A stretch of 64,000 bases of DNA from an uncultured Gammaproteobacteria bacterium (lineage in GTDB: Bacteria > Pseudomonadota > Gammaproteobacteria > Eutrophobiales > Eutrophobiaceae), in the NCBI GenBank assembly GCA_951812995.1, contig CATOTD010000002.1, positions 67,468-131,467 of the forward strand. Reading direction: 5' to 3'. A program made the translations under genes and the position numbers. This document shows positions 22,093 to 53,480 of this stretch, one piece after another. The notes under the pieces were generated by a model. The model was not told the DNA's origin and did not search any database. It saw nothing but the letters and a program-made list of their open reading frames with translations. Position 1 is the first letter of the stretch. Each line of letters starts with the position of its first letter.

Positions 22093-23443
22093 TCGCACTT
22101 TCTGATTTAGCTTTCCCTTAAATCTGTTTGTTACGCTACCTGAAAATCCTTTTCTTTATCCATCTCTTGGAGCAAATCCATGTTCAGATATGTCCGCGTT
22201 CCCCACTAGCTCCCCGCGATGTGTCTAAGCCTTGCCGCACAAAGCATCAACGCCGAGTTGCCATCCGGGAATGCTCCCACTACTCAAGTTCGCCGCCTGA
22301 TTTCTCGAATGATCCGCTCCAAAGGATTGTTAGTCCGAATGCAAATCCAGTGCTCTGCCAGAAACCGATAATACGTCAGGGTCTCTGCCATGCACTGGTC
22401 CAGCCAATCCGCTACACTCGATAACTTCATGTCCCTGAGCTTCTTCTCGACCTCCGTGGCCTTATGCCTGACTGATTCCATATATTCAGATGCATGGATA
22501 GCCTGCAACATGCGAGAGACTTCTTTGACACGACCACGAGACACATGACTGAAGACGTTGCGGTAGCAGTGCACAATACAACGCTGCCAGCCAGCTTCGG
22601 GTAGAAGTCACCTATTGACTCCTTGAGCCCAAGACAGGCATCACTGAGCACCAACCTGATGCCCTTGAGACCGCGTGCCTTTAAATGACGCAGGAATCCT
22701 GACCATCCCACCTTATCCTCCTTAGTACCTTCAACAATCCCTGGAATGCGGCGGTAGCCATCGTCCCCAACACCTATGGCGACTAGAACAGAAACGTTCT
22801 TCACTGCACCGCCCCAACTGCGTTTGAGCACAACACCGTCCAGGTATACATAAGGGAAATCACTCCCTATGGGGCGATTACGCCACTCTTCAATCTGCCC
22901 ATAGATACGCTGGTTGAGCTTTGAAATAGTCCCTAAGCTAACACGGGTACCCCACAATGCTGCGGTAATGTCTTCTACACGTTGTACTGAAACACCTGCC
23001 AGATACATCTCAATCAGTGCCTCTTCGACAGACGCTACACGGTGTCGATAGCGCTCTATGATGGCCATCTCAAAGGTCTGCTTGCGTAGCTTCGGCATCT
23101 TTAACTCAAGCTCTCCAGCCCTTGTGTGGCACTTCCTGGTGTAGCTATCAGACCGGTCGTCTTTGCGCGTCTCAGTGCGTGCATATCGATCAGCACCCAC
23201 CAGCGCATCAACCTCAGCATGAAGCATCTGGTTGCGGGTGTCTTCCACAGTCTTCAGTACCACTTTGTTGAGATGGCCCTGCAGTGCCTGTTCATCAATA
23301 GGGACTACGTTGTTCAAGTGCTTGCTTGTATCATCGCTCATGGCGACTCTTCTCCTAGTCAAATAAATGGTTATGTCACTTTTTATTTAACCAGATAAAG
23401 GGGAACCGCCTCTTCAAATTTGCGAAAGATAATTTATGTTATC
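22093..23443 (-). mobile_element. IS256-family element, lineage 1, copy A: transposase pseudogene (1-nt deletion plus in-frame TGA), right end truncated
   Basis: ORF pieces 23362..22427, 22574..22284 and the tail beyond carry IS256/mutator motifs (AL.GADRYARTETRKD, YLDGVVLKR, NNPLERIIREIRRRT). The left end starts GATAACATAAATTATCTTTCGC, like IS256 IRs; the terminal ~17 bp of the right IR seen in copies B and C is missing and there is no target-site duplication. Confidence 0.8.
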
Positions 23444-23772: not shown

Positions 23773-24066
23773 TAGTACTCCTTATACTCATAACGCTTAG
23801 CATCCAGCGGTCCATCGAAGACCCGCGGAGCGGGCTTTGGGCGATCCGACTGCATACGCTTGTTATAAGCCATTCTGCAACTTAGTTGTGCGAGAATCTA
23901 AAATAATCGCTATGCACCCGTTGAATCAAATTAATTGGGAATTATATACTTTACTCCAACTTCACTACAAAATACAAACACAATGATTTGTTAGTTTTTT
24001 CAAGTAACAAGCTCACCATGCTCACCTGTTACCTTATGCAATTTTTCAATTGCACTCCATTTTGGG

Positions 24067-24369
24067 TTAAACCATCTTTTCTTGTCTTTCGTTTGCACGC
24101 AACGACAATAAAAAGGTTTTTATCGGTTTTTTATCTTTGTTGAATACTGCAATATCAAGCGGATACTCTTTTTTGGTATCAGATGGCCTTACTTTTACAC
24201 GCCACTGTGGTCGTGTTTGTAATTGTTCTTTGGGGTATCCGTAATCTTCGACAAGTGTTTCGGAAAAGACTTGTACTGCTTCTACTTCTTCTGGCGTAGC
24301 TTTTACTTCTTCACCACTTATATAGTCTTTGATGTAACCTTCTCTCATTATCGTCCTGTATATCCGCAT
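24067..24369 (-). CDS. IS-borne passenger ORF, ~100 aa, resembling the N-terminal part of HsdR-N / PD-(D/E)xK nuclease-type proteins
   Basis: Conserved in both IS1595 copies between the transposase and the right IR, differing only by an in-frame 6-nt indel (PEEVEAVQ vs PAEAVQ). The GYPKEQLQTRP..YPLDIAVFNKDKKPIKTFLL segment is reminiscent of the HsdR N-terminal domain; similarity not verified. Confidence 0.5.
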   Translation of the reverse strand: MRIYRTIMREGYIKDYISGEEVKATPEEVEAVQVFSETLVEDYGYPKEQLQTRPQWRVKVRPSDTKKEYPLDIAVFNKDKKPIKTFLLSLRANERQEKMV

Positions 24370-24388
24370 TCTATTTCCATTGCTTTGC

Positions 24389-25312
24389 TCATGCTAGCAC
24401 CTCGCGATAGGTAATCCGTTTACCTATCGCGTTGCTTATAAGTGATTCTATACGTTGATTGGTTGGTAACTTACATGGTCCGTTATTCAGTCTAAAAGTC
24501 ACTTCGTTCACATAGCGATGTAAGTGTTTAGTGCTGGCATGAGGCCATACCCCATACAGACCGCGTTTGAGTAAAGCCCAGACACTTTCAATGCTATTGG
24601 TATGAATGTTGTTTGAACCCACATATTCTCCCGCACTATGGGTTACCGTACCATGCTGATAAGCAGACTGTAAATGCTGATATGACCTGTGTTCATCTGT
24701 GTAAATGGTGGCACCATATTCCACTGAACAGCCAATCTCTTTGTGTAGGGTCGGTATATCAGTTGATGGGATAGGCTTAGCCCTTGTGCGGCCACCGCGC
24801 TCACGCATTCCGACCACTACCTGCTTGCCAGCTACGCCACGGCCTGCGCGGGCTTTCTTGTGTTTGTTATGTTCCTTCCCACCGATATAGGTCTCATCAA
24901 TCTCAACAATGCCAGAAAGTAAATTATCTGTATTATCGTTACAGGTTTCACGAATGCGGGCCTGCATAAACCAGGCGGTCTTTTGAGTTACTCCGATTTG
25001 TTTAGATAACTGCAAGCTAGATATGCCCTTGCGCGAGGTGACAGTTAAGTAAATAGCATACAGCCATTTATGTAGTGGTACATGAGAACGTTCAAAGATA
25101 GTGCCGGTTCTCACTGTAAACTCACTCTTGCAGTCCCGGCATAAGTAATATCCTGTCCGCTTTCCTTTGCGCGGGGTAATACGCTTAAATCCCCCACAAT
25201 GAGGACAGGATATGTAATCTCCCCAGCGTTGTCCCTCAAAATACAATCTAGCGGCTTCAGCATCCGGAAACTGGCGAAATAACTCAAATGTGGATATGGT
25301 ATTGTCTTTCAT
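24389..25312 (-). CDS. IS1595-family transposase (N-terminal zinc-ribbon plus DDE domain)
   Basis: 307 aa with CPHCGG..C..C zinc ribbon, KWLYAIYL and DETYIGG motifs typical of IS1595/ISXO2-like transposases. About 99% identical to the copy at 31607..32536. Confidence 0.85.
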   Translation of the reverse strand: MKDNTISTFELFRQFPDAEAARLYFEGQRWGDYISCPHCGGFKRITPRKGKRTGYYLCRDCKSEFTVRTGTIFERSHVPLHKWLYAIYLTVTSRKGISSLQLSKQIGVTQKTAWFMQARIRETCNDNTDNLLSGIVEIDETYIGGKEHNKHKKARAGRGVAGKQVVVGMRERGGRTRAKPIPSTDIPTLHKEIGCSVEYGATIYTDEHRSYQHLQSAYQHGTVTHSAGEYVGSNNIHTNSIESVWALLKRGLYGVWPHASTKHLHRYVNEVTFRLNNGPCKLPTNQRIESLISNAIGKRITYREVLA

Positions 25313-25397
25313 TGATGACCCTCCGTTTTATTGCATTTTTATGTTAGATTATATGGGTTATTTATTGGAGTCAAGTATATAATTCCCAATTAATTCC

Positions 25398-25694
25398 CTA
25401 TGCCATTGTTCTGAACCAGTCCTTAACTGTGAGATTTAGTCTATCAATTTCATCTTCTGTGATAGGGCAGCAATGTGCAATTGGGCCTCGAAGTAGGTTT
25501 AAACTACTCATTACCCGTTCGACTGCCCTGCGGCTATTGAAGATAGTGCCAAATACGTCCCAGCTGTCAATAATTATCACGGAAAGTTCGCCAAAGGTCG
25601 TATAGTCAATTTCGTTATCTGATCGTCGCGTAATGCCACTATCAAGTTCCCTTTGAGTTCGGTTTGCCACATCATTTCGTATTTTCTCTGGCAC
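25398..25694 (-). CDS. small HEPN-like protein (R-x4-6-H motif LRGPIAH)
   Basis: 98-aa ORF ending 2 bp before the IS1595 target duplication. Contains an ..NLLRGPIAHCC.. segment matching the HEPN Rx4-6H signature. 5' context is disturbed by an IS903-like element. Confidence 0.35.
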   Translation of the reverse strand: MPEKIRNDVANRTQRELDSGITRRSDNEIDYTTFGELSVIIIDSWDVFGTIFNSRRAVERVMSSLNLLRGPIAHCCPITEDEIDRLNLTVKDWFRTMA

Positions 25695-25902
25695 TCGATC
25701 TGAAGACCACCAATTTCCGCCTTCGGCATCAGTAAGTGTCTCTGAAATGAGTTTTCTAATCGAAGTTTCTAAGCAATAAAAAAATTCATAGTGTTAATGG
25801 AACCTCTATTAATGCAATCACTTTCCAGTTTATTGGCTCAGAGAGGTTAAAAATAACCAATTTGATCCAAAAAGCCGGTAGTCTCCGTACAGCCCTGTTC
25901 TC

Positions 25903-26900
25903 GGCTTTACTTCGTTTTCAAGACGCACTGACCCGTGCCAGAAAGCATAAACGCCTCATGTTGTACCTTAGATTCATCAAGCCGATATGCATGTTTGTGC
26001 GCGTAATGCCAATGCAAGGAACCGCTTTGCGGTGTAAATTGCGCTGTGCTCCAAACACAGGTTCGACCCGACTACGAACTTTGGAGCGCGTGCGCTTACC
26101 TTGCGCCTTGAGAAACGCTACTTTTTCCTCTGACCGATAGGCACTGTCAGCCCAGACATCTTTACTGGTATTGCTGTCATCTGGCAGGTCGGCAAAAACC
26201 TGCGCATCATGGACGCTGGCATCAGTGACCTGATAGTCACGAATCAACTTGTTGTCATGGTCTATCTGTATGTGGTTCTTGTAAGCAAAATGGCTACGGC
26301 TATGTTTCTTCGTCCAGCGGGCCGGGACAGTGCCTGCCTTAATCCGGGCATTGTATTCCCGAAGGTTACGCGGCAACAGTGCCGGAATGATCGAGGAGGC
26401 AACTATCTGACCCTTGCGAGTGATATAAGCCGCCTGGTTCAACGACAACTGCTCAAACAACGATGCCATCAGACCCAGCGCCGCTAACCGATGCTTGAAT
26501 GCCCAGCAGGTTTTGGTATCAGCGACTCGTTGCTGCCTAGCAAGACCCAGAAACTGCTGAAAACTGCAACGGTCTTCGATTTGGTATTCCAACTGAGCAT
26601 CGCTAAGACCATACAGATTTTGCACAAGCAGTCCCTTGAACATCATCACTACGTTTGTTGGGCGTTGCCCGCCTGACGCTTACGTTGTTTCTCATGAACC
26701 TTGTTCAACAACGACCGAAAAGATCCCCAGTCAACCGTCTTTTCCAGTTCAGGCAGAGGATTACCCAACTGTTTGAGACGATAGTCTTGAAGATTAAACA
26801 GAGAACCGAAAATGTCATTGCTCATGGAAGTTTCTTTGTCAGTTTGGAAACTTCAACATTGTACCAAATAACGTCATTAATAGAGATGCCTTAAAGTTTC
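25903..26900 (-). mobile_element. IS903-like (IS5-family) element, transposase pseudogene with a 1-nt frameshift
   Basis: ORF 26649..25918 has an IS903-group DDE core (KTCWAFKHRL..., DSAYRSEEKVAFLKAQG). The N-terminal MSNDIFGSLFNLQDYRLKQLGNPLPELEKTVDWGSFRSLLNKVHEKQRKRQAG... reads in another frame from about 26828. The low-coordinate end begins GGCTTTAC.., like the IS903 IR. Confidence 0.6.
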
Positions 26901-26993
26901 ACGTTTAACATTGGGAATTACTTTAGTCATTATCTTGCCGCCGCGCTCAACCATTCCGAGAATACCGGTTTTCTTAGATCTTATGTCAGTTGG

Positions 26994-27392
26994 TCAACCG
27001 CGCACATTGTCCTTGTCGCATCCATGGGCTTCGTTGACCTCTACATGGCCGGATAGTTCGTCATCACCGTCTATTTTACCCATGTACTTGCGAATTTCGT
27101 GCCCCATACGCCATGCAGTCTTGTAAGTGACAGAGAGTTGGTGCTGTAGCTCCTTAGCTGGCACACCATGACGAGAAGAGGTGAATAGGTAGATCGCGTA
27201 AAACCACTTCTGTAATGGTGTAGAAGACCCCGCAAACGGAGTAACGGCCATAGGGCTGATCTGGCGGTCGCAATACTGACAGGAGAACACAGGGCGCTTG
27301 GCAACTCTGTGAAACTTAGAATTCTTCTTGCACTTCGGACACTCTAGATCTTTGCCATAGCGAACATTGTGAGTCAAGGGAATAATGCCCAC
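26994..27392 (-). pseudogene. N-terminal fragment (~130 aa) of a third, divergent IS1595-family transposase
   Basis: Zinc-ribbon C.KC..(n)..CQYC, then WFYAIYLFTSSRHGVPAKEL and VEVNEAH (cf. DETYIGG), but no downstream DDE core. Confidence 0.6.
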
Positions 27393-27433
27393 GAAAATTA
27401 GTTCAATCAGGGGTGCTTAATGATTAATGAACA

Positions 27434-28592
27434 TCTGATTAATTCCATAATATGCGATAATACCGCAATGTTTTAAGTGGAGGGTCAAAAGATGCAACAA
27501 AAAAGCCTGGCAGTATCTGGATTCGAGAAATACCGCAAGCAGACACGCAAAGAGATATTTCTCGAAGAGATGAATCAGCTCATTCCCTGGCAAGCGCTGA
27601 CTGCAGTAATTGAGCCTCATTACCCCAACCCCCGGGGTGCTGGTCGCCGTCCGGTGGGCATGGAACGCATGCTGAGAATCTACTTCCTGCAACACGGGTT
27701 TGCCTTATCTGATCCTGCCACAGAAGCGGCTTTATATGACACACCTGCCATGCGGTGCTTTGCCCAGATAGACTTAGGTCAGGAACCCGTGCCAGATGCA
27801 AGCACCCGCTGTCAATGCCGTCATCTACTGGAGGAGAACAACCTCGGAGTTGCCCTGTTTGATGCTGTTGCCGTCTATCTGGAAGCAAACGGCATGCAAA
27901 GTATCCAAAGGCACTATTGTTGATGCGACCCTCATCAATGCGCCTACCGCCACCAAGAACAAAAGCAAAACCCGTGACCTTGATAGGCATCAGACCAAAA
28001 AAGGCAAGCAATGGTACTTTGGCATGAAGGCGCACATCGGTGTGGATAGCAAAACCAAACTGATACACTCGGTTGTTGCCACACCAGCCCATGTCCACGA
28101 CTCACAGGTACTTGGAGACCTACTGCATGGAGAAGAGACCCGTCTTTGGGGAGATAGTGCCTATGCGGGTCAGCAATCCGTACTCAAGGATAATGACCCC
28201 AAGGTAAAAGACTACACCCAGGTCAAAGGCTCACGTCACCGCAAACTGACCGAACAGGACAAGGCTAAAAACCGGCACAAATCCAAAGTCCGTGCCAAGG
28301 TTGAGCATGTCTTTCATATCATGCAGCGACAATATGGATTTACCAAAGTCAGATTCAAAGGGCCAGGCAAGAATGCGAACCACCTGTTTGCCCACTGTGC
28401 CCTGATTAATCTTATGCTATCAAAGAAACAATTATTACGGCTATCAGTGGCTTAGTACGCCTGGAATAGGGGCGATAGCTGAAAACCAGTAGGCCGGGAC
28501 AAGAGAAATGAAAGAGAGTAATGAGCAAGACGTTCAATGCTCGCTACTATCGAGCACAGTGATGCCCACTTGCTTGAAAATCCTTAATTAAT
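27434..28592 (+). mobile_element. IS5-type element copy 1 (IS5 group), transposase split by a frameshift
   Basis: ORFs 27477..27923 and 27796..28455 together match E. coli IS5 transposase (RKEIFLEEMNQLIPWQAL..., DATLINAPTATKNK, HQTKKGKQWYFGMKAHIGVD). Both ends are shared with the second copy at 40597..41742. Confidence 0.8.
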
Positions 28593-28630
28593 TAGATGTT
28601 CCTTAAATTGTATTCTGGTGTTATAATAGT

Positions 28631-29407
28631 TTGGGTGAGAAAATGGAACAAATAAAACTAAAAAGTTGTGCTGAGGAATGTGTAAATAAAATTATGGAAG
28701 GTGATTTTTTTGCCATGCCATATAAACACCTTGTTGTTGATAATTTTTTACCTGTTGATTTAGCGAAGAAGTGTACGGAAAGTTTTCCAAGTTTAGATGA
28801 TCCAGTGTGGGAGCATGAATCTGACTTTGATGTAGAAGTAAAATCGAGGACAATGTGGAGATCAGAGTTTGATATTCCATCAAATATTGTTGATGCGGTA
28901 AGAATATTAAATTCATCTCTAGTTTTATATGCTCTTTCAGAAATGTTCAGTATTCCTAAACTTGTTCCTGATCCTTATTTTACTGGCGGAGGTTTAAATG
29001 TCTCTAATAGAGGTGGTTTACTTGGCGTGCATGTTGACGGTAACTATCATGATGCAACAGGCTTAAATAGAAGAATGAATGCTTTGATATATTTAAACCC
29101 TAGATGGGAAGAAAGTTGGGGAGGAGAGTTTGGACTTTATAATAATGATGGAAGTGAAGTTGTAAAAAAAATAGCCCCTATTTTTAATAGATTGATTGTT
29201 TTTGACTCTCACGATTATAGCTTTCATGGACTTCCTGAGGCTATCAAGTGTCCTGAAGGGGAGCAGAGAAAATCTATAATACTGTATTACTATACTAAGG
29301 AAAATCGTCCCGCGACACAGGTAAGTATTAAAGAGCCTCACCGTGCTTTGTGGGTTAAAAGAAAGTTGAAAGACAAAAGTGGAAATATATGCCGTGAATT
29401 TGATTAG
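28631..29407 (+). CDS. 2OG-Fe(II) oxygenase superfamily protein
   Basis: 258 aa with an H-x-D...H arrangement (GVHVDGNYHD ... FHGLPE) in a low-GC glycan-biosynthesis context. Confidence 0.55.
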   Translation: MGEKMEQIKLKSCAEECVNKIMEGDFFAMPYKHLVVDNFLPVDLAKKCTESFPSLDDPVWEHESDFDVEVKSRTMWRSEFDIPSNIVDAVRILNSSLVLYALSEMFSIPKLVPDPYFTGGGLNVSNRGGLLGVHVDGNYHDATGLNRRMNALIYLNPRWEESWGGEFGLYNNDGSEVVKKIAPIFNRLIVFDSHDYSFHGLPEAIKCPEGEQRKSIILYYYTKENRPATQVSIKEPHRALWVKRKLKDKSGNICREFD

Positions 29408-29421
29408 ATGGAAAATTGTAG

Positions 29422-30432
29422 ATGTTTGAAAATAGAGTATTAATGATTACAGGTGGAACAGGTTCATTTGGTAATGCCGTATTAAATCGTTTCTTACCCA
29501 CCGGTGTAAGTGAGGTTCGTATTTTTAGTCGTGATGAAAAAAAACAAGAGGAAATGCGGCTCATTCATAATAATGACAAGCTACGATTTTACATAGGAGA
29601 TGTGCGTGATTTTGATAGCATCGCTCATGCTATGAAAGGGGTGGATTATGTATTTCATGCGGCCGCACTTAAGCAAGTACCTTCTTGTGAGTTTTATCCG
29701 ATGGAAGCTGTGCGCACTAATGTGATTGGTGCGGGAAACGTCATGTCGGCCGCAACTATGAATAGTGTGAAACGTGTTATTGTTTTAAGCACTGATAAAG
29801 CAGTATATCCAATTAATGCGATGGGCTTATCGAAAGCATTGATGGAGAAATTAATGATAGCTAAATCACGCTCACAAAATGAAGGAGAAACAATATTTTC
29901 TGCTACCAGGTATGGAAATGTAATGGCTTCTCGAGGGTCCGTAATTCCATTGTTTATTTCACAATTGAAACAAGGGGAACCCTTGACGATAACAGACCCA
30001 AACATGACGCGATTCTTAATGTCATTAGAAGATTCTGTAGATCTGGTATTACATGCTTTTAAGTATAGTCAACAAGGTGATATTTTTGTGCAAAAAGCGC
30101 CTGCGGCAACAGTTATGGATCTTGCTGAGGCTTTAAGAAATATATTTAACAAGGGGAATCCTATTAATATTATTGGCACTCGTCATGGTGAAAAACTTTA
30201 TGAATCATTAATTTCTAGAGAAGAAATCGAACGGGCAAATGAAAAGGATAAGTATTTTTGTATTCCTGCTGACTCCCGCGACTTAAATTACAATATGTAT
30301 TTTAGTAATGGAGAAGAAAGAATATCTCAATTAGAGGATTATACCTCCCACAACACACAAAGGTTGGATGTTAAAGAGATTGAAGCACTCCTTTTAAGTC
30401 TTGATTGCGTAAAAGAAGCGCTTGATGCTTAA
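29422..30432 (+). CDS. fnlA: UDP-N-acetylglucosamine 4,6-dehydratase/5-epimerase (CapE/FnlA/WbjB family)
   Basis: Very close to Cap5E/FnlA by recall (ITGGTGSFGNAVLKRFL, FYIGDVRD, AAALKQVPSCEF, STDKAVYPINAMGLSKA, RYGNVMASRGSVIPLF, TITDPNMTRF). Confidence 0.85.
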   Translation: MFENRVLMITGGTGSFGNAVLNRFLPTGVSEVRIFSRDEKKQEEMRLIHNNDKLRFYIGDVRDFDSIAHAMKGVDYVFHAAALKQVPSCEFYPMEAVRTNVIGAGNVMSAATMNSVKRVIVLSTDKAVYPINAMGLSKALMEKLMIAKSRSQNEGETIFSATRYGNVMASRGSVIPLFISQLKQGEPLTITDPNMTRFLMSLEDSVDLVLHAFKYSQQGDIFVQKAPAATVMDLAEALRNIFNKGNPINIIGTRHGEKLYESLISREEIERANEKDKYFCIPADSRDLNYNMYFSNGEERISQLEDYTSHNTQRLDVKEIEALLLSLDCVKEALDA

Positions 30433-31561
30433 GGTTATGACTATTGTTGGAACTCGACCCGAGCTTATCAAGATGAGCCGTGTTATAGTAGAGTTTGATC
30501 GCCAAACTGAACATGTTCTTGTGCATACTGGCCAAAATTATGACTATGAATTGAATCAAATATTTTTTGATGAAATGAATATTCGAAAACCAAATTATTT
30601 TCTGGATGTTGCCAGTGAAAATGCCGCAAAAACCATAGGTCAGGTTATTATTAGTTCCGATGAAATATTACGTAGGGAAAAGCCAGATGCTGTTTTGCTT
30701 TATGGTGATACAAATTCTTGCCTTGCGGTTATTTCTGCAAAACGACTTAAAATTCCTATATTTCATTTTGAAGCCGGCAATCGTTGTTTTAATCAATGTG
30801 TTCCAGAAGAATTAAATCGTAAGATTGTTGATCATTTAAGTGATATAAATCTCGTTTTAAGTGAACACGCCAGGCGTTGTTTGATTGCAGAAGGCATCCC
30901 TGCGGACAGAATAATTAAGACGGGTTCTCATATGCAAGAAGTGTTGGAATATTATCTTCCAGAAATAGAAAAATCAGAGGTGTTGCAACATAATAAGCTA
31001 AAACAAAACGAATATTTCGTTGTGAGCGCACATCGGGAGGAGAATGTTGATTCTCCAGAAAATCTTGTTGAGCTCTTAAACACACTTAATATATTAGCCA
31101 GAACGTATAAGTTTCCAATAATCGTATCGACTCATCCGCGAACACAAAAACGGTTAAATAAAATTGATGATATAGGAGTAAATAGTCTGATTAGATTTAT
31201 CAAACCTTTTGGTTTTGTAGATTATATAAAATTACAGATTGATTCGTACTGTGTGATCTCAGATAGTGGGACTATTATGGAAGAAGCGGCATTATTGAAC
31301 TTTCCTGCAATCACTATTCGAGATGAACATGAAAGACCAGAAGGTTTTGATTCAGGAACACTGGTTATGACTGGTTTAAAGCAAGAACGGGTACAAGATG
31401 GTATAAAGATAATTAAGAGTCAGCGAAAAGAACTCGAAAAAAATATAGGGGTGGTGACTGATTATGAAGCGGGGTCCGTATCAAAAAAAGCAGTCAGGAT
31501 TGTTTTAAGCTATATTGATTACGTAAATAAAGGGAATTATATACTTGAATCCAATAAATAA
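30422..31561 (+). CDS. fnlC: non-hydrolysing UDP-sugar 2-epimerase (CapG/FnlC/WbjD family); C-terminal 6 codons rewritten by IS1595 insertion
   Basis: TIVGTRPELIKM..., HTGQNYDYELNQIFF, FHFEAGNRCF, TGSHMQEVL signatures of UDP-GlcNAc 2-epimerase-like enzymes. The last residues (GNYILESNK) are encoded by the IS1595 left IR. Confidence 0.8.
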   Translation: MMLKVMTIVGTRPELIKMSRVIVEFDRQTEHVLVHTGQNYDYELNQIFFDEMNIRKPNYFLDVASENAAKTIGQVIISSDEILRREKPDAVLLYGDTNSCLAVISAKRLKIPIFHFEAGNRCFNQCVPEELNRKIVDHLSDINLVLSEHARRCLIAEGIPADRIIKTGSHMQEVLEYYLPEIEKSEVLQHNKLKQNEYFVVSAHREENVDSPENLVELLNTLNILARTYKFPIIVSTHPRTQKRLNKIDDIGVNSLIRFIKPFGFVDYIKLQIDSYCVISDSGTIMEEAALLNFPAITIRDEHERPEGFDSGTLVMTGLKQERVQDGIKIIKSQRKELEKNIGVVTDYEAGSVSKKAVRIVLSYIDYVNKGNYILESNK

Positions 31562-31606
31562 CCCATATAATCTAACATAAAAATGCAATAAAACGGAGGG
31601 GTATCA

Positions 31607-32536
31607 ATGAAAGACAATACCATATCCACATTTGAGTTATTTCGCCAGTTTCCGGATGCTGAAGCCGCTAGATTGTATTTTGAGGGACAACGCTGGGGAG
31701 ATTACATATCCTGTCCTCATTGTGGGGAATTTAAGCGTATTACCCCGCGCAAAGGAAAGCGGACAGGATATTACTTATGCCGGGACTGCAAGAGTGAGTT
31801 TACGGTGAGAACCGGCACTATCTTTGAACGTTCTCATGTACCACTACATAAATGGCTATATGCTATTTACTTAACTGTCACCTCGCGCAAGGGCATATCT
31901 AGCTTGCAGTTATCTAAACAAATCGGAGTAACTCAAAAGACCGCCTGGTTTATGCAGGCCCGCATTCGTGAATCCTGTAACGATAATACAGATAATTTAC
32001 TTTCTGGCATTGTTGAGATTGATGAGACCTATATCGGTGGGAAGGAACATAACAAACACAAACACAAGAAAGCCCGCGCAGGCCGTGGCGTAGCTGGCAA
32101 GCAGGTAGTGGTCGGAATGCGTGAGCGCGGTGGCCGCACAAGGGCTAAGCCTATCCCATCAACTGATATACCGACCCTGCACAAAGAGATTGGCTGTTCA
32201 GTGGAATATGGTGCCACCATTTACACAGATGAACACAGGTCATATCAGCATTTACAGTCTGCTTATCAGCATGGTACGGTAACCCATAGTGCGGGAGAAT
32301 ATGTGGGTTCAAACAACATTCATACCAATAGCATTGAAAGTGTCTGGGCTTTACTCAAACGCGGTCTGTATGGGGTATGGCCTCATGCCAGCACTAAACA
32401 CTTACATCGCTATGTGAACGAAGTGACTTTTAGACTGAATAACGGACCATGTAAGTTACCAACCAATCAACGTATAGAATCACTTATAAGCAACGCGATA
32501 GGTAAACGGATTACCTATCGCGAGGTGCTAGCATGA
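31607..32536 (+). CDS. IS1595-family transposase
   Basis: 309 aa, identical to the copy 1 transposase apart from a few substitutions and an in-frame KH insertion (EHNKHKHKKARAG vs EHNKHKKARAG). Confidence 0.85.
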   Translation: MKDNTISTFELFRQFPDAEAARLYFEGQRWGDYISCPHCGEFKRITPRKGKRTGYYLCRDCKSEFTVRTGTIFERSHVPLHKWLYAIYLTVTSRKGISSLQLSKQIGVTQKTAWFMQARIRESCNDNTDNLLSGIVEIDETYIGGKEHNKHKHKKARAGRGVAGKQVVVGMRERGGRTRAKPIPSTDIPTLHKEIGCSVEYGATIYTDEHRSYQHLQSAYQHGTVTHSAGEYVGSNNIHTNSIESVWALLKRGLYGVWPHASTKHLHRYVNEVTFRLNNGPCKLPTNQRIESLISNAIGKRITYREVLA

Positions 32537-32555
32537 GCAAAGCAATGGAAATAGA

Positions 32556-32852
32556 ATGCGGATATACAGGACGATAATGAGAGCAGGTTACATCAAAGAC
32601 TATATAAGTGGTGAAGAAGTAAAAGCTACGCCAGCAGAAGCAGTACAAGTCTTTTCCGAAACACTTGTCGAAGATTACGGATACCCCAAAGAACAATTAC
32701 AAACACGACCACAGTGGCGTGTAAAAGTAAGGCCATCTGATACCAAAAAAGAGTATCCGCTTGATATTGCAGTATTCAACAAAGATAAAAAACCGATAAA
32801 AACCTTTTTATTGTCGTTGCGTGCAAACGAAAGACAAGAAAAGATGGTTTAA
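32556..32852 (+). CDS. IS-borne passenger ORF (HsdR-N-like), second copy
   Basis: 98 aa, paralogue of 24067..24369 with an in-frame 2-aa indel. Confidence 0.5.
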   Translation: MRIYRTIMRAGYIKDYISGEEVKATPAEAVQVFSETLVEDYGYPKEQLQTRPQWRVKVRPSDTKKEYPLDIAVFNKDKKPIKTFLLSLRANERQEKMV

Positions 32853-33027
32853 CCCAAAATGGAGTGCAATTGAAAAATTGCATAAGGTAACAGGTGAGCA
32901 TGGTGAGCTTGTTACTTGAAAAAACTAACAAATCATTGTGTTTGTATTTTGTAGTGAAGTTGGAGTAAAGTATATAATTCCATAAATAAAAATGTTTGGC
33001 ACTCTCCATAATTTTTTATAATAAATT

Positions 33028-37574: not shown

Positions 37575-38713
37575 CTAAAAACCGTACACTTTGTGGTACG
37601 GTCTGATTCACTTGATGTGGGAGGATTTTGTTTATGCACGCACCTGGATTGTTTGATTTGACGGATCATTTGGCGCGGCTTTCGGCGATGGGAGATCCGC
37701 TTGAGGTTTTGGAGCGGCACGTTGATTTCGAAGTGTTTCGCCCAGTTCTTGTTGAAGCGCTTGGCTATGGGGAACGTCCCAAAGGTGGTCGCCCGCCCTA
37801 TGATGCCGTTGTGATGTTCAAGGTTCTGGTGTTGGCCTCGATGCACAATCTGAGCGATGAGCGGATGGAGTTTCTCATTCGTAACCGTTTCAGTTGGCTA
37901 CGGTTCCTGGGATTTCAAATCGGGGAGCCGACACCTGATCAGAAGACGATCTGGCTTTTCAGAGAGAAGCTGACCTAGGCGGGTGTCTTCAAGGCCCTGT
38001 TTGCCGCGTTTGAAGCTCAGCTGTGCGCGCGGGGATACAAACCGACCGGCGGTCAGATTGTGGATGCCACGTTGGTCTCTGCCCCGCGCCAGCGGATGAC
38101 GAAAGCAGAGAAAGCGCGCGCCAAGGCAGGTGAGGCCGCGTCTGACATCTGGCCCGATGATCTGTCCAAGGCAGCGCAGAAAGACACCGATGCACGTTGG
38201 ACGGTCAAGTATTCAAAGGCCAAGACAACCAAGGAGGGTGAGGAGGATACTGGCCTTGTCGATATTTCTGTTCCGCACTTTGGGTACAAGAACCACGTGT
38301 CCATAGACCGCAAATGGCGCTTCATCCAGGGTGAGACTGGCACGAATGCGGCTCGCTACGACGGGCATGAACTCTCCTCGGTTCTGGACGAGACAAACAG
38401 CTCGAAGGCGGTTTGGGCCGATACCGGGTACCGCTTGGCCAGGAATGAGGCTTGGCTGAAGGCGCAAGGGTACCGCTCACATATCCATCGCAAGAAGCCA
38501 CGCGGCAAACCCATGGCCAGGCATATTCGTCGGGGCAACGCGACACGCTCCGCCATCCGCGCCTGTGTTCGGCTACGAGAAAGGGCCCATGGCTCTGACC
38601 ATCCGCTCAATCGGCCAAACCCGTGCGAAGGCCCGCATGACCATGGCCAACCTGAGCTACAACTTCCGCCGTCTCATCTTCCACGAGCGACGACAGGCCA
38701 CAGCCTGACTCCG
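37575..38713 (+). mobile_element. IS5-family element (lineage 2) copy 2, inverted; transposase pseudogene (in-frame TAG at 37976..37978)
   Basis: ORFs 37628..37978 and 38060..38785 equal the copy 1 transposase with a premature stop (..EKLT*AGVFK..). Inserted into IS256 copy B on one side and next to an IS3 orfB-like remnant on the other. Confidence 0.75.
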
Positions 38714-38859
38714 CCCAAATTCCGGAAATACCCGCCCTGGCGGACCCAAACAGCGCAACACAGCCTCAAATACCACCGATCTTGACCTTCACACCCACTA
38801 TGCGGGTGACAACGACTGGTGCTCGCGTCAAAATCCATCCAGAATCAGCGTTGTTCGAG

Positions 38860-39433
38860 GTCTCCAACTTCCCATTGCCGTTTCAAACGACCCACGACAT
38901 TGGCCGACAGCCCTTTAGCCTCCAATCCGACAATCGCTTCCAGTGCACTTTGCATCTGACCACTCGAAACACCTTTCAAATAAAGCCAGGGAATCGCCGC
39001 ATCCAGGGTCGCTGTGCGCCGGATGTAGGGCGGTACAAGCAAAGATTGAAAGCTCGCCGACTCACCCTCACGGCTACGGATATTGGGCACCTCGACGCTG
39101 ACCTTGCCAACCCCGATGATGATCTCTCGTTCTGGATGATGGCCACTGCGGACAACGCGCTGGCATCCGTCAGCCGTTTTTTGATCATCATACTGCCTCA
39201 TCAACTCATCTGGCTCTACCTGGACAGCTTCGGTGATTAACTGCCTCGCACCAGATCTGAGTAACTCTGTCAGTGGATCAATTCCCTCTGGTGTACCCAG
39301 ATCAATCACAGTATTGTTTGTCATGTGTGGCGTACTCCTCTTGTTACTTTTGATTGCTAGACAAAACCGATTCCAGCAAGGCACGCCGCATACTTCAACC
39401 TCTTCAGACATCAGGTTCGATTATAACTCTATA
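38860..39433 (-). mobile_element. IS256-family element, lineage 3, fragment: N-terminal ~180 aa of transposase plus one IS end
   Basis: ORF 39411..38845 (MTNNTVIDLGTPEG...PWLYLKGVSSGQMQSALEAIVG...GRLKRQWE) breaks off where the IS3-like remnant begins. The end sequence ..GCCGCATACTTCAACCTCTTCAGACATCAGGTTCGATTATAACTC is shared with copies at 58436 and 62147. Confidence 0.7.
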
Positions 39434-39639
39434 AATCAATCCGTGATTTCAATAGTTTTGCCATTTTTTAGCTTAAACTTGCACTCTAGTTCTTTTTTAG
39501 GTGGTGGATTATTAGGCATCCTATAAGCCTTTTTAGGCTTATAGGATGCTATTTTCTTAACTGTTTTAGTAAATTGTTTTTGTGTGATCATTTTCTAGGT
39601 GTGATCTGGGCATAGGTTATTCATGCGAGCCATGTGAGA

Positions 39640-40590
39640 GATTATATAAGTGACCAAACCAATAGGGTCAACAGAAACCCGCATGAACGTACACAAGCAT
39701 GCCCCATTGACACCGGAAGGTTGACTGAGTATGGTCAGACGAGCCCAACAACCTGGTTTTTCAGCGACCCAGGTGGCGCAAGAGTTTCATACGTCAACTC
39801 ACACTGTATTGAAGTGGAACAATCGATTTGAGAAGGAAGGTCTGGCAGGCCTGGAAGATAGCAGTTCTCGGCCAGTCAGCCGCCATCCCAGAGCACTGAC
39901 AAATAGGCAAGTCCGCCAAACCTCTTTGCTACGTAAGCACCGCCGGACCATGGAGCGGATTGCCAGGAATGTCGGCTCGACCCCGCCACAATGTCTTCGC
40001 ACCGCAGACGACTCGGTCTAAACAAACGCTCCGCGCTTGCACCCGCTAAACCCAATAATCGCTATGAGCGGTCTTATCCAGGTTCACTGTTGCACCTGGA
40101 CAGCAAGAAACTTAGGCGTTTTTGCAAAGGTAAGCCGTCTGCAGGGGCTGGCTGGGAGTACATACACATCTGCATCGATGCTCATTCCCGACTCAGTTAC
40201 GCTGAGATTCTGCCCGATGAACGCAAAGAGCGTGAAAGCCTACTATGAATCGATGGGCATACAGATTGAGCAGGTGATGACCGACTATGGCTTGAGGGTA
40301 TCGAGCAAAGTTCTTCAATAGGGTACTCAAGGCCATGGGTAGCGGCCACCTGTTTACTCGGCCTTACACACCAAGAACCAACGGCAAGGCCGAGCGATTC
40401 ATACAAACAATGCTCAGAGAGTGGGCCTATGCGATGCGTTATCAAACTTCTCATCTTAGGGCCAAAGCACTACTACCGTGGATTCATGACTACCATTGGC
40501 ATCGACCTCACGGCAGTATAGACAATCAACCACCCATCTCTCGGATAGACATTGCCATGAACAACCTATTTAGGTTCCACATCTAAGAAA
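39640..40590 (+). mobile_element. IS481-family element, transposase pseudogene (multiple frameshifts)
   Basis: ORFs 39731..40021 (HTH region), 39991..40248 (GSLLHLDSKKL...GWEYIHICIDAHSRLSYAEILPDE) and 40335..40586 (RPYTPRTNGKAERFIQT...RPHGS) are successive IS481-type transposase segments in different frames. Confidence 0.7.
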
Positions 40591-40596
40591 CCTCCG

Positions 40597-41742
40597 ATTA
40601 ATTCCATAATATGCGATAATACCGCAATGTTTTAAGTGGAGGGTCAAAAGATGCAACAAAAAAGCCTGGCAGTATCTGGATTCGAGAAATACCGCAAGAA
40701 GACACGCAAAGAGATATTTCTCGAAGAGATGAATCAGCTCATTCCCTGGCAAGCGCTGACTGCAGTAATTGAGCCTCATTACCCCAACCCCTGCTGGTCG
40801 CCGTCCGGTGGGCCTGGAACGCATGCTGAGAATTGACTTCCTGCAACACTGGTTTGCCTTATCTGATCCTGCCACAGAAGCGGCTTTATATGACACACCT
40901 GCCATGCGGTGTTTTGCCCAGATAGACTTAGGTCAGGAACCCGTGCCAGATGCAAGCACCCGCTGTCAATGCCGTCATCTACTGGAGGAGAACAACCTCG
41001 GAGTTGCCCTGTTTGATGCTGTTGCCGTCTATCTGGAGGAAAACGGCATGAAAGTATCCAAAGGCACTATTGTTGATGCGACCATCATCAATGCGCCTAC
41101 CGCCACCAAGAACAAAAGCAACACCCGTGACCCTGATAGGCATCAGACCAAACAAGGCAAGCCATGGTACTTTGGCATGAAGGCACACATCGGTGTGGAT
41201 AGCAAAACCAAACTGATACACTCTGTTGTTGCCACACCAGCCAATGTCCACGACTCACAGGTACCTGGAGACCTGCTGCATGGAGAAGAGACCCGTCTTT
41301 GGGGAGATAGTGCCTATGCGGGTCAGCAATCCGTACTCAAGGATAATGACCCCAAGGTAAAAGACTACACCCAGGTCAAAGGCTCACGTCACCGCAAACT
41401 GACCGAACAGGACAAGGCTAAAAACCGGCACAAATCCAAAGTCCGTGCCAAGGTTGAGCATGTCTTTCATATCATGCAGCGACAATATGGATTTACCAAA
41501 GTCAGATTCAAAGGGCCAGGCAAGAATGCGAACCACCTGTTTGCCCACTGTGCCCTGATTAATCTTATGCTATCAAAGAAACAATTATTACGGCTATCAG
41601 TGGCTTAGTACGCCTGGAATAGGGGCGATAGCTGAAAACAGTAGGCCGGGACAAGAGAAATGAAAGAGAGTAATGAGCAAGACGTTCAATGCTCGCTACT
41701 ATCGAGCACAGTGATGCCCACTTGCTTGAAAATCCTTAATTG
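40597..41742 (+). mobile_element. IS5-type element copy 2, transposase disrupted by a short deletion near 40790
   Basis: Same ends and transposase as 27434..28592 (ORFs 40636..40836 and 40769..41608); the N-terminal part jumps from ..EPHYPNP to CWSPSGG.. instead of ..RGAGRRPVGMERML. Confidence 0.8.
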
Positions 41743-41999
41743 ATCAGATGTTCCTTAGGTAATTATATATCTGAGTAACAATATGCTTTCAGTCCTTTTC
41801 CACAATATTGATTGATAGGTTGGCAGTAATAGTGCAATGTTTTGATTATTTATTAGGCTAGGCATTGGTACACGCTTTTTCATTGCTTAGCCCCCTGTTG
41901 GCTATCTGTATTAATCTCCATCACTCTCCAGTCCGCCTTCTTTCGAAGCTTTTCAAAACTAAGCCGTACCCTGAAATCTTCCCCTAAAGTTGGTGCGTT

Positions 42000-42605
42000 T
42001 CAACCCGCAAGCCAAATAGTATCAGTGGCTGACGGGTTATACCTGTCCTGTAGTTCGCCGTTTGGGATGCAAGCTATAATGATGCGGTTTAGTTTTTGTG
42101 AACTACCCACTACTTCATAGACATACTTGGCAATCATGGTAACCACATACATCCTACGCTCGCCCCGTTCAATGAAGCGGTCCAACTTGCCGACTTCAGC
42201 TAAAGACTCTCCTGCACGATGCATCTTCACGGTCATTGATGTTTGCGACATTTGAATGGTTGCTGTTCTGTTGCCATTGCGTTTTTCAGCTTTTGCGTCC
42301 AGCATCAGCGCAACAGGCACAGGATTGGGGAGAAAGGCGTATATTGCCTTCTTGTAATCAACTTTTCCGTATAGGCGCTCGGCAATAGCAGATACCCCCA
42401 TGGTTTCAAGTGCCTCTCTGGTTACGTCCTCAGCGATATCTTGAGGGAGATCGGTCTCCTCTCGAAAGATGGTAACAGCTTGGTCGTAGTAATCAGTGAT
42501 GGCTTGCACCACTACCCCCATGACAGCCTGTTCAAGATGTTCCAATTCCTCAGGCAGCATCGGTACGAAGTCTCGCCATGGCCGTATATTTTGGGTCTGA
42601 ATCAA
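42000..42605 (-). CDS. hypothetical protein, candidate cognate restriction endonuclease (by position only)
   Basis: 201-aa ORF overlapping the methyltransferase stop by ~55 nt on the same strand (classic coupled M-R layout). No confident nuclease motif seen; LDAKAEK is only a weak PD-(D/E)xK candidate. Confidence 0.3.
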   Translation of the reverse strand: MIQTQNIRPWRDFVPMLPEELEHLEQAVMGVVVQAITDYYDQAVTIFREETDLPQDIAEDVTREALETMGVSAIAERLYGKVDYKKAIYAFLPNPVPVALMLDAKAEKRNGNRTATIQMSQTSMTVKMHRAGESLAEVGKLDRFIERGERRMYVVTMIAKYVYEVVGSSQKLNRIIIACIPNGELQDRYNPSATDTIWLAG

Positions 42606-43581: not shown

Positions 43582-43853
43582 GACCGCGCACCACTTGATA
43601 GTCCGTTGTCGGTAATCAATTCGCGGTAGCGAAGTTGCTTTCCCCCCATCCCAATAACGATACAGGCCATCTGATCCGTCGTGTCAGCATCACGGTTGTT
43701 CTGCCTTTCGGCAAACTCATTGACATAACGGTCAAGGTGCTTCTCACTCGTTTTGTGGTAGGTACCGTAATACCAACGCTTGAGCATCGCCCAGAAGCTC
43801 TCAATTTCCAGATATTTTTGATACTGCTTATCGCTAATCGGTTTGTCAATCAT
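43578..43853 (-). pseudogene. C-terminal fragment of an IS1595-family transposase
   Basis: ..ESFWAMLKRWYYGTYHKTSEKHLDRYVNEFAERQNNRD.. matches the conserved IS1595 C-terminus (cf. SVWALLKRGLYGVWPHASTKHLHRYVNEVTFRLNN); no upstream remainder. Confidence 0.65.
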
Positions 43854-43955
43854 AGCTTTCCTACCTCTTTAAACTCGTTGGAGAAGTAACCACAAGGTCA
43901 ACAAAACAATCTGGCATACTAGCCATTATTTTAAGGCAGTTGCCTTGCATATATT

Positions 43956-44882: not shown

Positions 44883-45014
44883 CTATCATATAACCAGCGT
44901 TTACTCATTATTAAGCAGTAATACATTATATGACACATAAAAAATCAATCTGTTTTAAATATATTTGTGGCGTTAAGTATATAATTCCCAAGTATAGGGA
45001 TCCCCTACCTGGAC

Positions 45015-53478: not shown

Positions 53479-53480
53479 AT

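What the first reader, a model, noticed from the sequence alone, without database searches (positions are those of the whole stretch)
23938..32982. Active-looking IS1595-family element carrying a conserved HsdR-N-like passenger ORF, present as an inverted pair around a glycan-gene segment
Two 1450-bp copies with identical terminal IRs and intact, different 8-bp target duplications (AATTAATT, TAAATAAA) indicate two independent, recent transpositions. Both carry a transposase and, between transposase and right IR, a ~100-aa ORF that differs between copies only by an in-frame 6-nt indel, as does the transposase (KHK vs KHKHK). That pattern of in-frame indels is consistent with a functional ORF under selection rather than junk. 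The ORF resembles the N-terminal region of type I restriction R subunits / PD-(D/E)xK nucleases. The copies are inverted and bracket 6.1 kb (25388..31532) containing the HEPN-like ORF, an IS903-like pseudogene, an IS5 copy, the 2OG oxygenase, fnlA and fnlC. Homologous recombination between them would invert this segment and swap which genes abut the GT4 gene.
Basis: partly seen in the sequence, partly recalled or inferred. Interest (0 to 1): 0.62.

Follow-up and report, generated by a model that had tools for sequence, protein, structure and literature searches.

The report
Methylase gene stump inside IS1595 copies
Two inverted copies of an IS1595-family insertion sequence are real, but their small "HsdR-N-like" ORF is the leftover of an 827-codon restriction-modification-type methylase gene that lost 2.1 kb internally, so this is a decayed cargo-carrying IS of a known kind, not a new functional passenger gene.

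Summary
There are two 1451-bp IS1595-family copies, A at 23937-25387 and B at 31532-32982. They are inverted, differ by 11 substitutions and two 6-nt indels, and each has its own 8-bp target duplication.

It consists of the first ~96 codons and the last 20 codons of an 827-aa HSDR_N_2 + N6_Mtase gene, which is intact in metagenome loci L085-L089. The two pieces are joined out of frame at a CAA microhomology, which implies a ~2.13-kb internal deletion. The nuclease ExK glutamate is replaced by alanine. Both window copies also carry a 1-nt loss in an A-run that shifts the frame before that motif. The "in-frame indels" lie in AAACAC and AAG repeats, so they are in frame by construction.

Relatives of the transposase (43-67% identity, near-identical ends in the closest) are mostly 2.0-3.2-kb transporter ISs. 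At least five lineages carry DNA methylases, three with a recognisable nuclease. The window holds two more such modules.

Matched duplications around each copy show that the 6.1-kb segment is not inverted in this assembly. There is no sign that the pair moved as a composite transposon.

Verdict: a decayed member of a known kind, of modest interest.

The parts
23929..23936 (.). Target-site duplication of copy A (AATTAATT), left copy
   Evidence: Identical 8-mer at 25388-25395.
23937..25387 (-). IS copy A, 1451 bp. The transposase reads on the - strand.
23937..23987 (-). The IS's own right end in copy A (51 nt), including the 23-nt right terminal repeat at 23937-23959
   Evidence: This stretch has no homology to the methylase gene. 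Homology to L088 stops at IS position 1400.
23988..24064 (-). 3' remnant of the methylase gene in copy A: the last 20 codons (KWSAIEKLHKVTGEHGELVT), the stop codon, and trailing bases to the end of the 77-nt remnant
   Evidence: 83.5% identical to L088 2580-2658. The translation matches the C-terminus of the 827-aa protein.
24062..24349 (-). 5' remnant of the methylase gene in copy A (start codon to about codon 96). The deletion junction is the CAA at 24062-24064.
   Evidence: 82.7% identical to L088 160-448. The two blast segments overlap by 3 nt.
24067..24369 (-). Small ORF of the finding in copy A. It is 100 aa from the first ATG, or 93 aa from the ATG at 24348 that corresponds to the homologues' start.
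24127..24132 (-). A6 run that is one base shorter than in the intact gene and in sister copy P0002. This frameshift puts the ExK motif out of frame.
   Evidence: Alignment gap. The P0002 sequence is, and the three-frame translation is.
24389..25312 (-). Transposase of copy A, 307 aa
   Evidence: DDE_Tnp_IS1595 at 1.5e-41 and Zn_ribbon_IS1595. NCBIfam transpos_IS1595 scores 194.8 bits against a cutoff of 75.
25365..25387 (-). Left terminal inverted repeat of copy A
   Evidence: (I4).
25388..25395 (.). Target-site duplication of copy A, right copy
31524..31531 (.). Target-site duplication of copy B (TAAATAAA), left copy. It lies in the last codons of the fnlC-like gene.
   Evidence: empty-site reconstruction.
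31532..32982 (+). IS copy B, 1451 bp. Its final base is A instead of C.
31607..32536 (+). Transposase of copy B, 309 aa (the KHKHK form, which is the commonest among the listed public variants)
32556..32852 (+). Small ORF in copy B (98 aa, or 91 aa from the homologous ATG at 32577)
32576..32857 (+). 5' remnant of the methylase gene in copy B
   Evidence: The sequence is the same as in copy A apart from 2 substitutions and the (AAG)2 deletion.
32855..32931 (+). 3' remnant of the methylase gene in copy B
   Evidence: identical to copy A.
32932..32982 (+). The IS's own right end in copy B, with the right terminal repeat at 32960-32982
32983..32990 (.). Target-site duplication of copy B, right copy
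25396..31523 (.). Bracketed segment: Swt1-like HEPN ORF, IS5 pseudogene, IS1595 transposase N-terminal fragment, frameshifted IS5, 2OG-oxygenase-like gene, FnlA-like gene and WecB/FnlC-like gene

Best explanation
The element is a decayed transporter IS (tIS) of the IS1595 family.

An ancestor carried, between the transposase stop and the right terminal repeat, a complete 827-codon gene. That gene encodes a restriction-modification-type enzyme with an N-terminal HSDR_N_2 PD-(D/E)xK nuclease domain, an N6-adenine methylase domain and a C-terminal region.

A ~2.13-kb internal deletion at a 3-nt CAA microhomology then removed about codons 97-807. It joined the two ends out of frame. What remained was a 106-codon ORF in which the nuclease ExK glutamate is alanine.

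A later 1-nt loss in an A-run gave the 93/100-aa ORF seen in both window copies.

The shortened 1451-bp element kept its intact DDE transposase and both terminal repeats, and it went on transposing. The two window copies are separate insertions, each with its own 8-bp duplication.

Shown here: the anatomy, the homology of both remnants to one gene, the frameshift, the separate insertions, and the cargo-carrying habit of relatives.

Inferred: that the whole gene was once inside the element, the order of events, and that the stump has no function of its own.
For: (1) blastn of the IS against L085-L089 gives two colinear pieces of one gene. IS 1039-1326 matches L088 160-448 at 82.7%. IS 1324-1400 matches L088 2580-2658 at 83.5%.

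(2) L088 161-2644 is an intact 827-aa ORF. Its N-terminus (MKDGYIKDYISGEE...IVVECKRKTRKDGLTQ) and C-terminus (...KWSAIEKLHKVKGVHGELVT) match the two remnants.

(3) The outer limits of the homology are the start codon and a point just past the stop codon, so a whole coding sequence was carried.

(4) The intact protein has HSDR_N_2 (50 bits, profile 7-110), N6_Mtase (128.9 bits) and Eco57I-type methylase matches. It matches PADLOC MTase_II.

(5) The stump covers only HSDR_N_2 profile positions 7-51 at 24.5 bits, below the cutoff.

(6) Sister copy P0002 reads ...KDKKTDKNLFIVVACKRK...NCIR*. The window copies read ...KDKKPIKTFLLSLRANERQEKMV*. This is a 1-nt difference in an A-run, and the frameshifted form is the commoner one (20 contig occurrences against 6).

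(7) None of 80 loci with related transposases has a tblastn match to the ORF.

(8) Relatives with the same or very similar ends are 2.0-3.2-kb elements, most with 8-bp duplications, and carry methylase or restriction cargo directly after the transposase.

(9) tISs are a described class, said to be restricted to the IS1595 and IS66 families (bioRxiv 10.1101/2021.05.26.445724). Restriction-modification or solitary methylase genes associated with IS elements, including a truncated type IIG gene next to a COG3677 transposase-like ORF with 8-bp duplication, are in PMC2853133.
Against: - No copy of this IS with the full-length gene was found. The nearest intact genes (L085-L089) have no IS1595 transposase within the available flanks, so whole-gene carriage is inferred, not observed.
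- The first ~75 codons are open in all four known ORF variants. However, at about 1% divergence between copies this is expected without selection.
- Expression of the stump was not tested.
Confidence: 0.88

Rival explanations
1. The ~95-aa HsdR-N-like ORF is a functional small passenger protein kept by selection, for example a regulator, a decoy or an anti-restriction factor.
For: - The ORF is open in both copies and in four public variants.
- It has a plausible ribosome-binding site (AGGA 6 nt before the ATG at 24348).
- The indel between the copies is in frame.
- Its N-terminal 75 residues are 70-80% identical to a widespread family.
Against: - It is an out-of-frame fusion of the two ends of an 827-codon gene.
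- The fold is cut in the middle, with only profile positions 7-51 of 110 present.
- The ExK glutamate is lost, and the reading frame after codon ~75 differs between sister copies.
- The copies differ by 2 non-synonymous and 0 synonymous changes in the ORF.
- The indel is a loss of (AAG)2 in a triplet repeat, so it is in frame by construction.
- The ORF is absent from 80 related loci.
Confidence: 0.05
2. The IS never carried the whole gene. It picked up a pre-existing broken gene fragment, or gained a new right end after inserting next to an already deleted methylase pseudogene.
For: - No full-length version inside this IS was found.
- The genome is full of pseudogenes and IS debris.
Against: - The outer limits of the captured DNA coincide with the start codon and a point just past the stop codon of the gene. 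This fits capture of an entire gene, as in relatives whose cargo genes are complete.
- Both terminal repeats match at 21-22 of 23 positions, so a chance surrogate end is unlikely.
Confidence: 0.07
3. The inverted pair acts as a unit, either as a composite transposon or as an invertible switch that rearranges the glycan locus.
For: Two 1451-bp inverted repeats that differ at only 11 base positions plus two 6-nt indels are good substrates for homologous recombination. Copy B sits between the fnlC-like gene and the glycosyltransferase gene.
Against: - Each copy has its own matched 8-bp duplication, so the segment is in the parental orientation. One inversion would leave each copy with mismatched flanks.
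- The outer flanks (AATTAATT and TAAATAAA) differ, so the pair was not inserted as one unit.
- The segment is mostly IS debris.
Confidence: 0.1

Closest known systems
Transporter ISs (tIS) of the IS1595 family. From my memory of ISfinder (not checked against a source here), this is the ISNwi1 / 'ISNwi1+' subgroup of Siguier, Gagnevin & Chandler 2009.
   Same: - DDE_Tnp_IS1595 domain plus N-terminal zinc ribbon
- 8-bp duplications
- Ends beginning GGGAATTAT
- A D..D..E..K(+7) catalytic pattern by inspection
- Cargo DNA between the transposase stop and the right repeat (class described)
   Different: The cargo here is not a gene but a deletion stump. At 1451 bp the element is about 400 bp longer than the only cargo-free relative retrieved (1038 bp, L006) and shorter than its cargo-carrying relatives (2.0-3.2 kb).
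Neisseria gonorrhoeae unit described by Furuta, Abe & Kobayashi 2010 (PMC2853133). It has 26-bp inverted repeats and an 8-bp duplication. It carries a truncated type IIG RM gene, an S-subunit homologue and a COG3677 transposase-like ORF.
   Same: Transposon-like unit with short inverted repeats, an 8-bp duplication, a truncated restriction-modification fusion gene and a transposase-like ORF (COG3677). That COG3677 corresponds to IS1595-type transposases is from my memory, not checked here.
   Different: In that unit the RM gene lacks its N-terminal half and the transposase looks inactive. Here only the two tips of the gene remain and the transposase ORF is intact.
HSDR_N_2 + N6_Mtase enzymes: NCBI 'N-6 DNA methylase' (816 aa on Aerococcus plasmid pK79-1-A), the MADS MAD2 methyltransferase family, and RM.BsaXI
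   Same: The intact relative of the stump (L088, 827 aa) has the same domain order. It scores 380 bits against the MAD2 model and E 5.5e-27 against RM.BsaXI.
   Different: The MAD2 score is below the curated cutoff of 720, so the relative is not a MAD2 equivalog. The window retains only about 14% of the codons, so no enzyme can be made.

Membership tests
IS1595 family | Transposase with the DDE_Tnp_IS1595 catalytic domain | tested here: met
   Pfam PF12762 at E 1.5e-41, 142 bits. NCBIfam transpos_IS1595 at 194.8 bits against a cutoff of 75.
IS1595 family | N-terminal zinc-ribbon domain (present in all groups except IS1016; PMC8101967) | tested here: met
   PF12760 at 30.5 bits against a cutoff of 25.4, residues 17-62.
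IS1595 family | 8-bp target-site duplication and terminal inverted repeats starting GG | tested here: met
   AATTAATT and TAAATAAA flank GGGAATTATATACTT... ends.
ISNwi1 subgroup of IS1595 (definition recalled from ISfinder: ends ggnnatTAT, DDEK motif) | End consensus and a D-D-E triad with K seven residues after the E | tested here: inconclusive
   The ends read GGGAATTAT. The protein reads VEIDETY, IYTDEH and NSIESVWALLK, with E then K at +7. The subgroup definition could not be checked because Siguier 2009 is not held. No tree with reference members was built.
Transporter IS (tIS) | Non-transposition DNA carried inside the terminal repeats and moved with the element | tested here: met
   Both copies, at different sites with different duplications, carry the same 362-nt methylase-derived stretch.
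Transporter IS (tIS) | An intact passenger gene | tested here: not met
   Only codons 1 to ~96 and the last 20 of 827 remain, fused out of frame.
HSDR_N_2 / PD-(D/E)xK nuclease domain | Score at or above Pfam's gathering threshold over the whole domain | tested here: not met
   24.5 and 24.2 bits against a cutoff of 25, over profile positions 7-51 of 110 only. The intact relative scores 50 bits over positions 7-110.
HSDR_N_2 / PD-(D/E)xK nuclease domain | Catalytic D ... E-x-K residues | tested here: not met
   The D is present (PLDIAVF). The ExK is out of frame in the window. In the unshifted sister copy it reads VACK, where relatives have VECK.
Composite transposon | The same target duplication at the two outer ends of the IS pair | tested here: not met
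   The outer flanks are AATTAATT and TAAATAAA. Each IS has its own pair.
Invertible (switching) DNA segment | Both orientations present in the population | not testable with these tools
   No reads are available. The assembly shows the parental orientation, with matched duplications around each copy.
MADS MAD2 methyltransferase (for the ancestral cargo gene) | NCBIfam NF047738 curated cutoff | tested here: not met
   L088 protein scores 380.4 bits against a cutoff of 720.

The most novel reading that the evidence does not exclude
The lineage of IS1595 elements with GGGAATTATATACTT-type ends may be a dedicated vehicle for restriction-modification modules.

- At least six unrelated methylase or methylase-plus-nuclease types sit at the same slot directly after the transposase stop. 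Among the relatives these are D12, C5+GIY-YIG, N6_N4+EcoO109I-like, N6_N4(+BsaWI-like) and N6_N4-HNH. The window adds N6_N4+SfiI-like and the 827-aa fusion enzyme.
- The methylase often overlaps the transposase stop codon, and the cargo limits are precise to the coding sequence. This would imply an unknown cassette-exchange mechanism.
- The element studied here would then be a derivative that lost its restriction cargo and afterwards multiplied.
- The EcoRV-like module at 48750-50664 has one such IS end and is flanked by a ~170-180-bp direct repeat. It might link these ends to the unexplained 'insertion with long target duplication' of restriction-modification systems.
Probability: 0.25. Interest if true: 0.55.

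Novelty: new member of a known kind. Interest (0 to 1): 0.3.

Why it matters
For annotation, the small "HsdR N-terminal domain protein" ORFs next to these transposases should be read as pseudogene stumps. They are not a new accessory gene, and the element should be catalogued as a deletion derivative of a cargo-carrying IS.

For biology, the modest point of interest is the family pattern. Close and distant relatives of this transposase repeatedly carry restriction-modification modules. This window holds three stages side by side: a methylase plus SfiI-like nuclease module still attached to IS1595 parts, an EcoRV-type module with a lone IS end, and the stump-bearing elements. That offers a natural series for studying how restriction systems ride on, and are lost from, insertion sequences.

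The glycan-locus angle is minor. Copy B replaces the last few codons of the fnlC-like gene and separates it from the downstream glycosyltransferase.

Tried and rejected
- megablast of the IS against PLSDB plasmids found no match.
- Exact look-ups of the small ORF variants P0001 and P0002 for genomic context found nothing on record. Other copies in the source genome therefore could not be read as DNA. Only protein variants were available.
- A PDB sequence search with the frameshift-corrected stump gave nothing meaningful.
- tblastn of the stump against 80 loci with related transposases gave no hits. This ruled out a family-wide conserved ORF.
- tblastn of the transposase against 80 loci holding relatives of the stump gave no hits. 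No IS carrying the intact gene was found.
- L003, the closest relative by identity (67%), proved uninformative on natural length because an IS630-type element has replaced its 3' part.
- The primary paper on the IS1595 family (Siguier 2009) and the 2014 FEMS review are not held. The subgroup assignment therefore rests on memory.
- I considered a surrogate-end (ISEcp1-like) capture and set it aside, because both terminal repeats are near-perfect.
- I considered structure prediction of the stump and did not run it. The two-piece DNA homology already settles what the ORF is.
Full report
**1. Observation**

Repeat finding on 22-35 kb returns three contiguous inverted-repeat blocks, separated only by indels, that add up to two full-length copies. 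A pairwise alignment and blastn of copy A against the whole window agree.
- Copy A is 23937-25387, with the transposase on the - strand.
- Copy B is 31532-32982, with the transposase on the + strand.
- Both are 1451 bp. They differ by 11 substitutions and two 6-nt indels.
- Copy A is flanked by AATTAATT on both sides and copy B by TAAATAAA.
- The 23-nt terminal repeats (GGGAATTATATACTT[T/G]A[C/A]TCCAA) carry one or two mismatches. The outermost base of copy B's right end is A instead of C.

Each copy has an intact transposase ORF of 307 or 309 aa and a small ORF of 100 or 98 aa. The small ORF starts about 20 nt after the transposase stop, or about 40 nt after it when counted from the ATG that corresponds to the homologues' start (93 or 91 aa).

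The transposase matches DDE_Tnp_IS1595 (E 1.5e-41) and the IS1595 zinc ribbon. It also matches NCBIfam transpos_IS1595 at 194.8 bits against a cutoff of 75.

**2. What the small ORF is**

Pfam gives HSDR_N_2 at 24.5 bits, just below the 25-bit cutoff. The match covers only profile positions 7-51 of 110.

A search of the large protein collection gives 368 hits. Most share 59-80% identity with roughly the first 70-90 residues. Where a name is given, it is "type I restriction enzyme M protein", "N-6 DNA methylase" or "HsdR N-terminal domain-containing protein".

Longer hits continue canonically as ...IIVECKKKNRKDGKSQLQDYLRFSKAFLGVWFNG.... The window ORF instead ends ...KDKKPIKTFLLSLRANERQEKMV*.

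Three-frame translation shows the canonical continuation in another frame...KTDKNLFIVVACKRKTRKDGLTQNGVQLKNCIR*. That is exactly the sequence of P0002, a 106-aa sister variant from another copy in public data.

So both window copies carry a 1-nt loss in an A-run (24127-24132 in copy A). Even the unshifted form has alanine where the family has the ExK glutamate.

**3. The decisive evidence**

A scan of metagenome contigs with the frame-corrected stump returned five loci (L085-L089) with 83-86% protein identity. blastn of the IS, in transposase-forward coordinates, against these loci gives two colinear segments.
- IS 1039-1326 matches L088 160-448 at 82.7%.
- IS 1324-1400 matches L088 2580-2658 at 83.5%.

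L088 161-2644 is one intact 827-aa ORF.
- Its N-terminus is MKDGYIKDYISGEEIKATPEEVEAVQVFSE...LFIVVECKRKTRKDGLTQ.
- Its C-terminus is ...KWSAIEKLHKVKGVHGELVT.
- The IS encodes KWSAIEKLHKVTGEHGELVT* in a third frame just before its right end.

The alignment places the junction at a CAA shared by both parents. It also shows that homology begins at the start codon and ends just past the stop codon.

The intact protein has HSDR_N_2 (50 bits, full length), N6_Mtase (128.9 bits) and Eco57I-type methylase signatures. It resembles RM.BsaXI and type I M subunits in the PDB. It scores 380 bits on the MAD2 model, below the 720 cutoff. It matches PADLOC MTase_II. An 816-aa plasmid homologue is annotated as N-6 DNA methylase.

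The small ORF is thus the two tips of a restriction-modification-type gene after a ~2.13-kb internal, out-of-frame deletion.

**4. Is there any sign of selection on the stump?**

Between copies A and B the transposase has 2 non-synonymous and 3 synonymous differences. The stump has 2 non-synonymous and none synonymous.

Slippage there is in frame by construction.

The frameshifted form of the stump is the more common one in public data (20 contig occurrences against 6). The element therefore went on spreading after the C-terminal third of the ORF changed completely.

With about 1% divergence between copies, an open 75-codon stretch is expected by chance.

**5. Relatives**

A scan of one genome per species with the transposase found 129 related stretches. 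The best reached 65-67% identity, and many come from metagenome-assembled genomes. None of the 80 loci kept has a match to the stump.

Searching those loci for the terminal 15-mer and extracting the elements showed that most relatives are 2.0-3.2 kb, and most have 8-bp duplications: AAGGTAAT, CTTTTTTT, CTAAAACT, TTTCTGAG, AATCGCGA, TTACTTTA, AAAAAATA. They carry 1-2 kb of cargo directly after the transposase, often with the first cargo gene overlapping the transposase stop.

The cargo is as follows.

| Locus | Cargo |
|---|---|
| L001 | D12 adenine methylase plus an unassigned ORF |
| L002 | C5 cytosine methylase plus a GIY-YIG nuclease |
| L011/L017 | N6_N4 methylase (plus a BsaWI-like fragment) |
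| L021 | N6_N4 methylase plus an EcoO109I-like endonuclease |
| L027 | Methylase-HNH fusion |
| L023 | Leishmanolysin-like protein |
| L026 | No family match (predicted secreted) |
| L006 | None (1038 bp) |

The stump-bearing element therefore fits a lineage whose habit is to carry restriction-modification genes.

**6. Literature**

ISs with passenger genes ("transporter IS") were introduced with the IS1595 family (PMC3129680). They are described as restricted to the IS1595 and IS66 families (bioRxiv 10.1101/2021.05.26.445724). [quoted passage not shown]

Furuta et al. (PMC2853133) cite the IS1595 paper among reports of restriction-modification and solitary methylase genes flanked by IS elements. 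They also describe a Neisseria unit with 26-bp inverted repeats, an 8-bp duplication, a truncated type IIG gene and a COG3677 transposase-like ORF.

The kind is therefore known. What is new here is only this member and the precise reconstruction of its decay.

From memory, the ends (ggnnatTAT) and the DDEK pattern place it in the ISNwi1 group. I could not check that against the primary source.

**7. The inverted pair and the glycan genes**

The bracketed 6.1 kb contains:
- a Swt1-like HEPN ORF;
- an IS5 pseudogene;
- an N-terminal fragment of another IS1595 transposase (26994-27392);
- a frameshifted IS5;
- a 2OG-oxygenase-like gene;
- an FnlA-like gene (526 bits, below the 730 equivalog cutoff);
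- a WecB/FnlC-type 2-epimerase.

Reconstruction of the empty site shows that copy B inserted into the last codons of the epimerase gene, upstream of a WcaI-family glycosyltransferase.

Each copy has matching duplications on both sides. A single inversion through the copies would leave mismatched flanks, so the assembly shows the parental orientation. The outer flanks differ, so the pair did not insert as a composite.

Recombination between the copies remains possible but is not evidenced here.

**8. Verdict**

The sequence features are real. The element belongs to the IS1595 family and has inserted at least twice. The "conserved HsdR-N-like passenger ORF" is a deletion stump of a former methylase or restriction cargo gene.

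I rate it a new member of a known kind, of modest interest. The family-wide link between this transposase lineage and restriction-modification cargo, with further examples in the same window, is the part most worth following.

Noticed in passing
window 41758-44989: This looks like a cargo-carrying IS1595 element of the 'parent' type. In order it has: an end at 44975-44989 (GGGAATTATATACTT); an intact 308-aa IS1595 transposase (43956-44882, -; 67% nt identity to the studied IS over a ~270-nt stretch); a 91-aa C-terminal fragment of another IS1595 transposase (43578-43853, -) overlapping the start of an N6_N4 DNA methylase (42550-43581, -); a SfiI-like endonuclease (42000-42605, -); and a degenerate end-like sequence GGTAATTATATATCT at 41758. 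No matching 8-bp duplication was seen.
   Followed up: partly
window 48571-50851: An EcoRV-like endonuclease (48876-49631) and a D12 Dam-like methylase (49710-50627) are preceded by a lone perfect IS1595 end (48750-48764). The unit is flanked by a 169-nt direct repeat at 98% identity (48571-48739 and 50665-50833) that covers the 5' end and upstream region of xerD. TTAATAAG follows both repeat copies. This resembles the 'insertion with long target duplication' reported for restriction-modification systems (PMC2853133), but here a transposon end sits at one boundary.
   Followed up: partly
window 57963-57984: A third lone end, TTAATAAGGGAATGATATACTT, shares the preceding 8 nt TTAATAAG with the end at 48743-48764. 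It is in the same orientation and next to IS256 debris. The origin is unexplained.
   Followed up: no
window 24403-24431 and 32494-32522: There is a perfect 12-bp-stem palindrome (CGCGATAGGTAA-loop-TTACCTATCGCG) inside the last codons of the transposase gene in both copies. Whether relatives conserve it was not checked (D1).
   Followed up: no
proteins P0081, P0086, P0090, P0110: Many database homologues of the methylase N-terminus are 85-111-aa ORFs on long contigs. They go out of frame right after ...ECKKK, which suggests an A-rich stretch. P0081 is seen on 164 contigs. This could be phase variation or recurrent homopolymer errors in this methylase family.
   Followed up: no
L081 4064-4229 (Aerococcus plasmid pK79-1-A): The IS stump also matches a second place about 750 bp upstream of the 816-aa N-6 methylase gene. 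It lies on the opposite strand of an annotated hypothetical CDS and beside a recombinase gene. This may be a spare 5' cassette for recombinase-driven switching.
   Followed up: no
window 45720-45866 and 53405-53479: There are two perfect tandem arrays. One has a 16-nt unit (TAGGTTATGGTGTATT) repeated about 8 times, between a 236-aa ORF and a 587-aa ORF, neither assigned here. The other has a 15-nt unit (AAAGAAACTGAACCC) repeated about 4.5 times, just upstream of a 1373-aa repeat-rich protein.
   Followed up: no
window-wide (for example 22427-23362, 25918-28455, 38060-41608, 58025-62041): There is a very high load of IS remnants (IS256, IS5, IS1595 and others), many of them frameshifted. At least 47 protein variants of this one transposase exist in public data, including zinc-finger Cys-to-Tyr variants. 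This fits a genome undergoing IS expansion and decay.
   Followed up: partly
L003 3359-4583: In the closest relative by identity (67%), an IS630-type element with CTAG-bordered inverted repeats has replaced the 3' part of the IS1595 element and abuts its right terminal repeat.
   Followed up: yes
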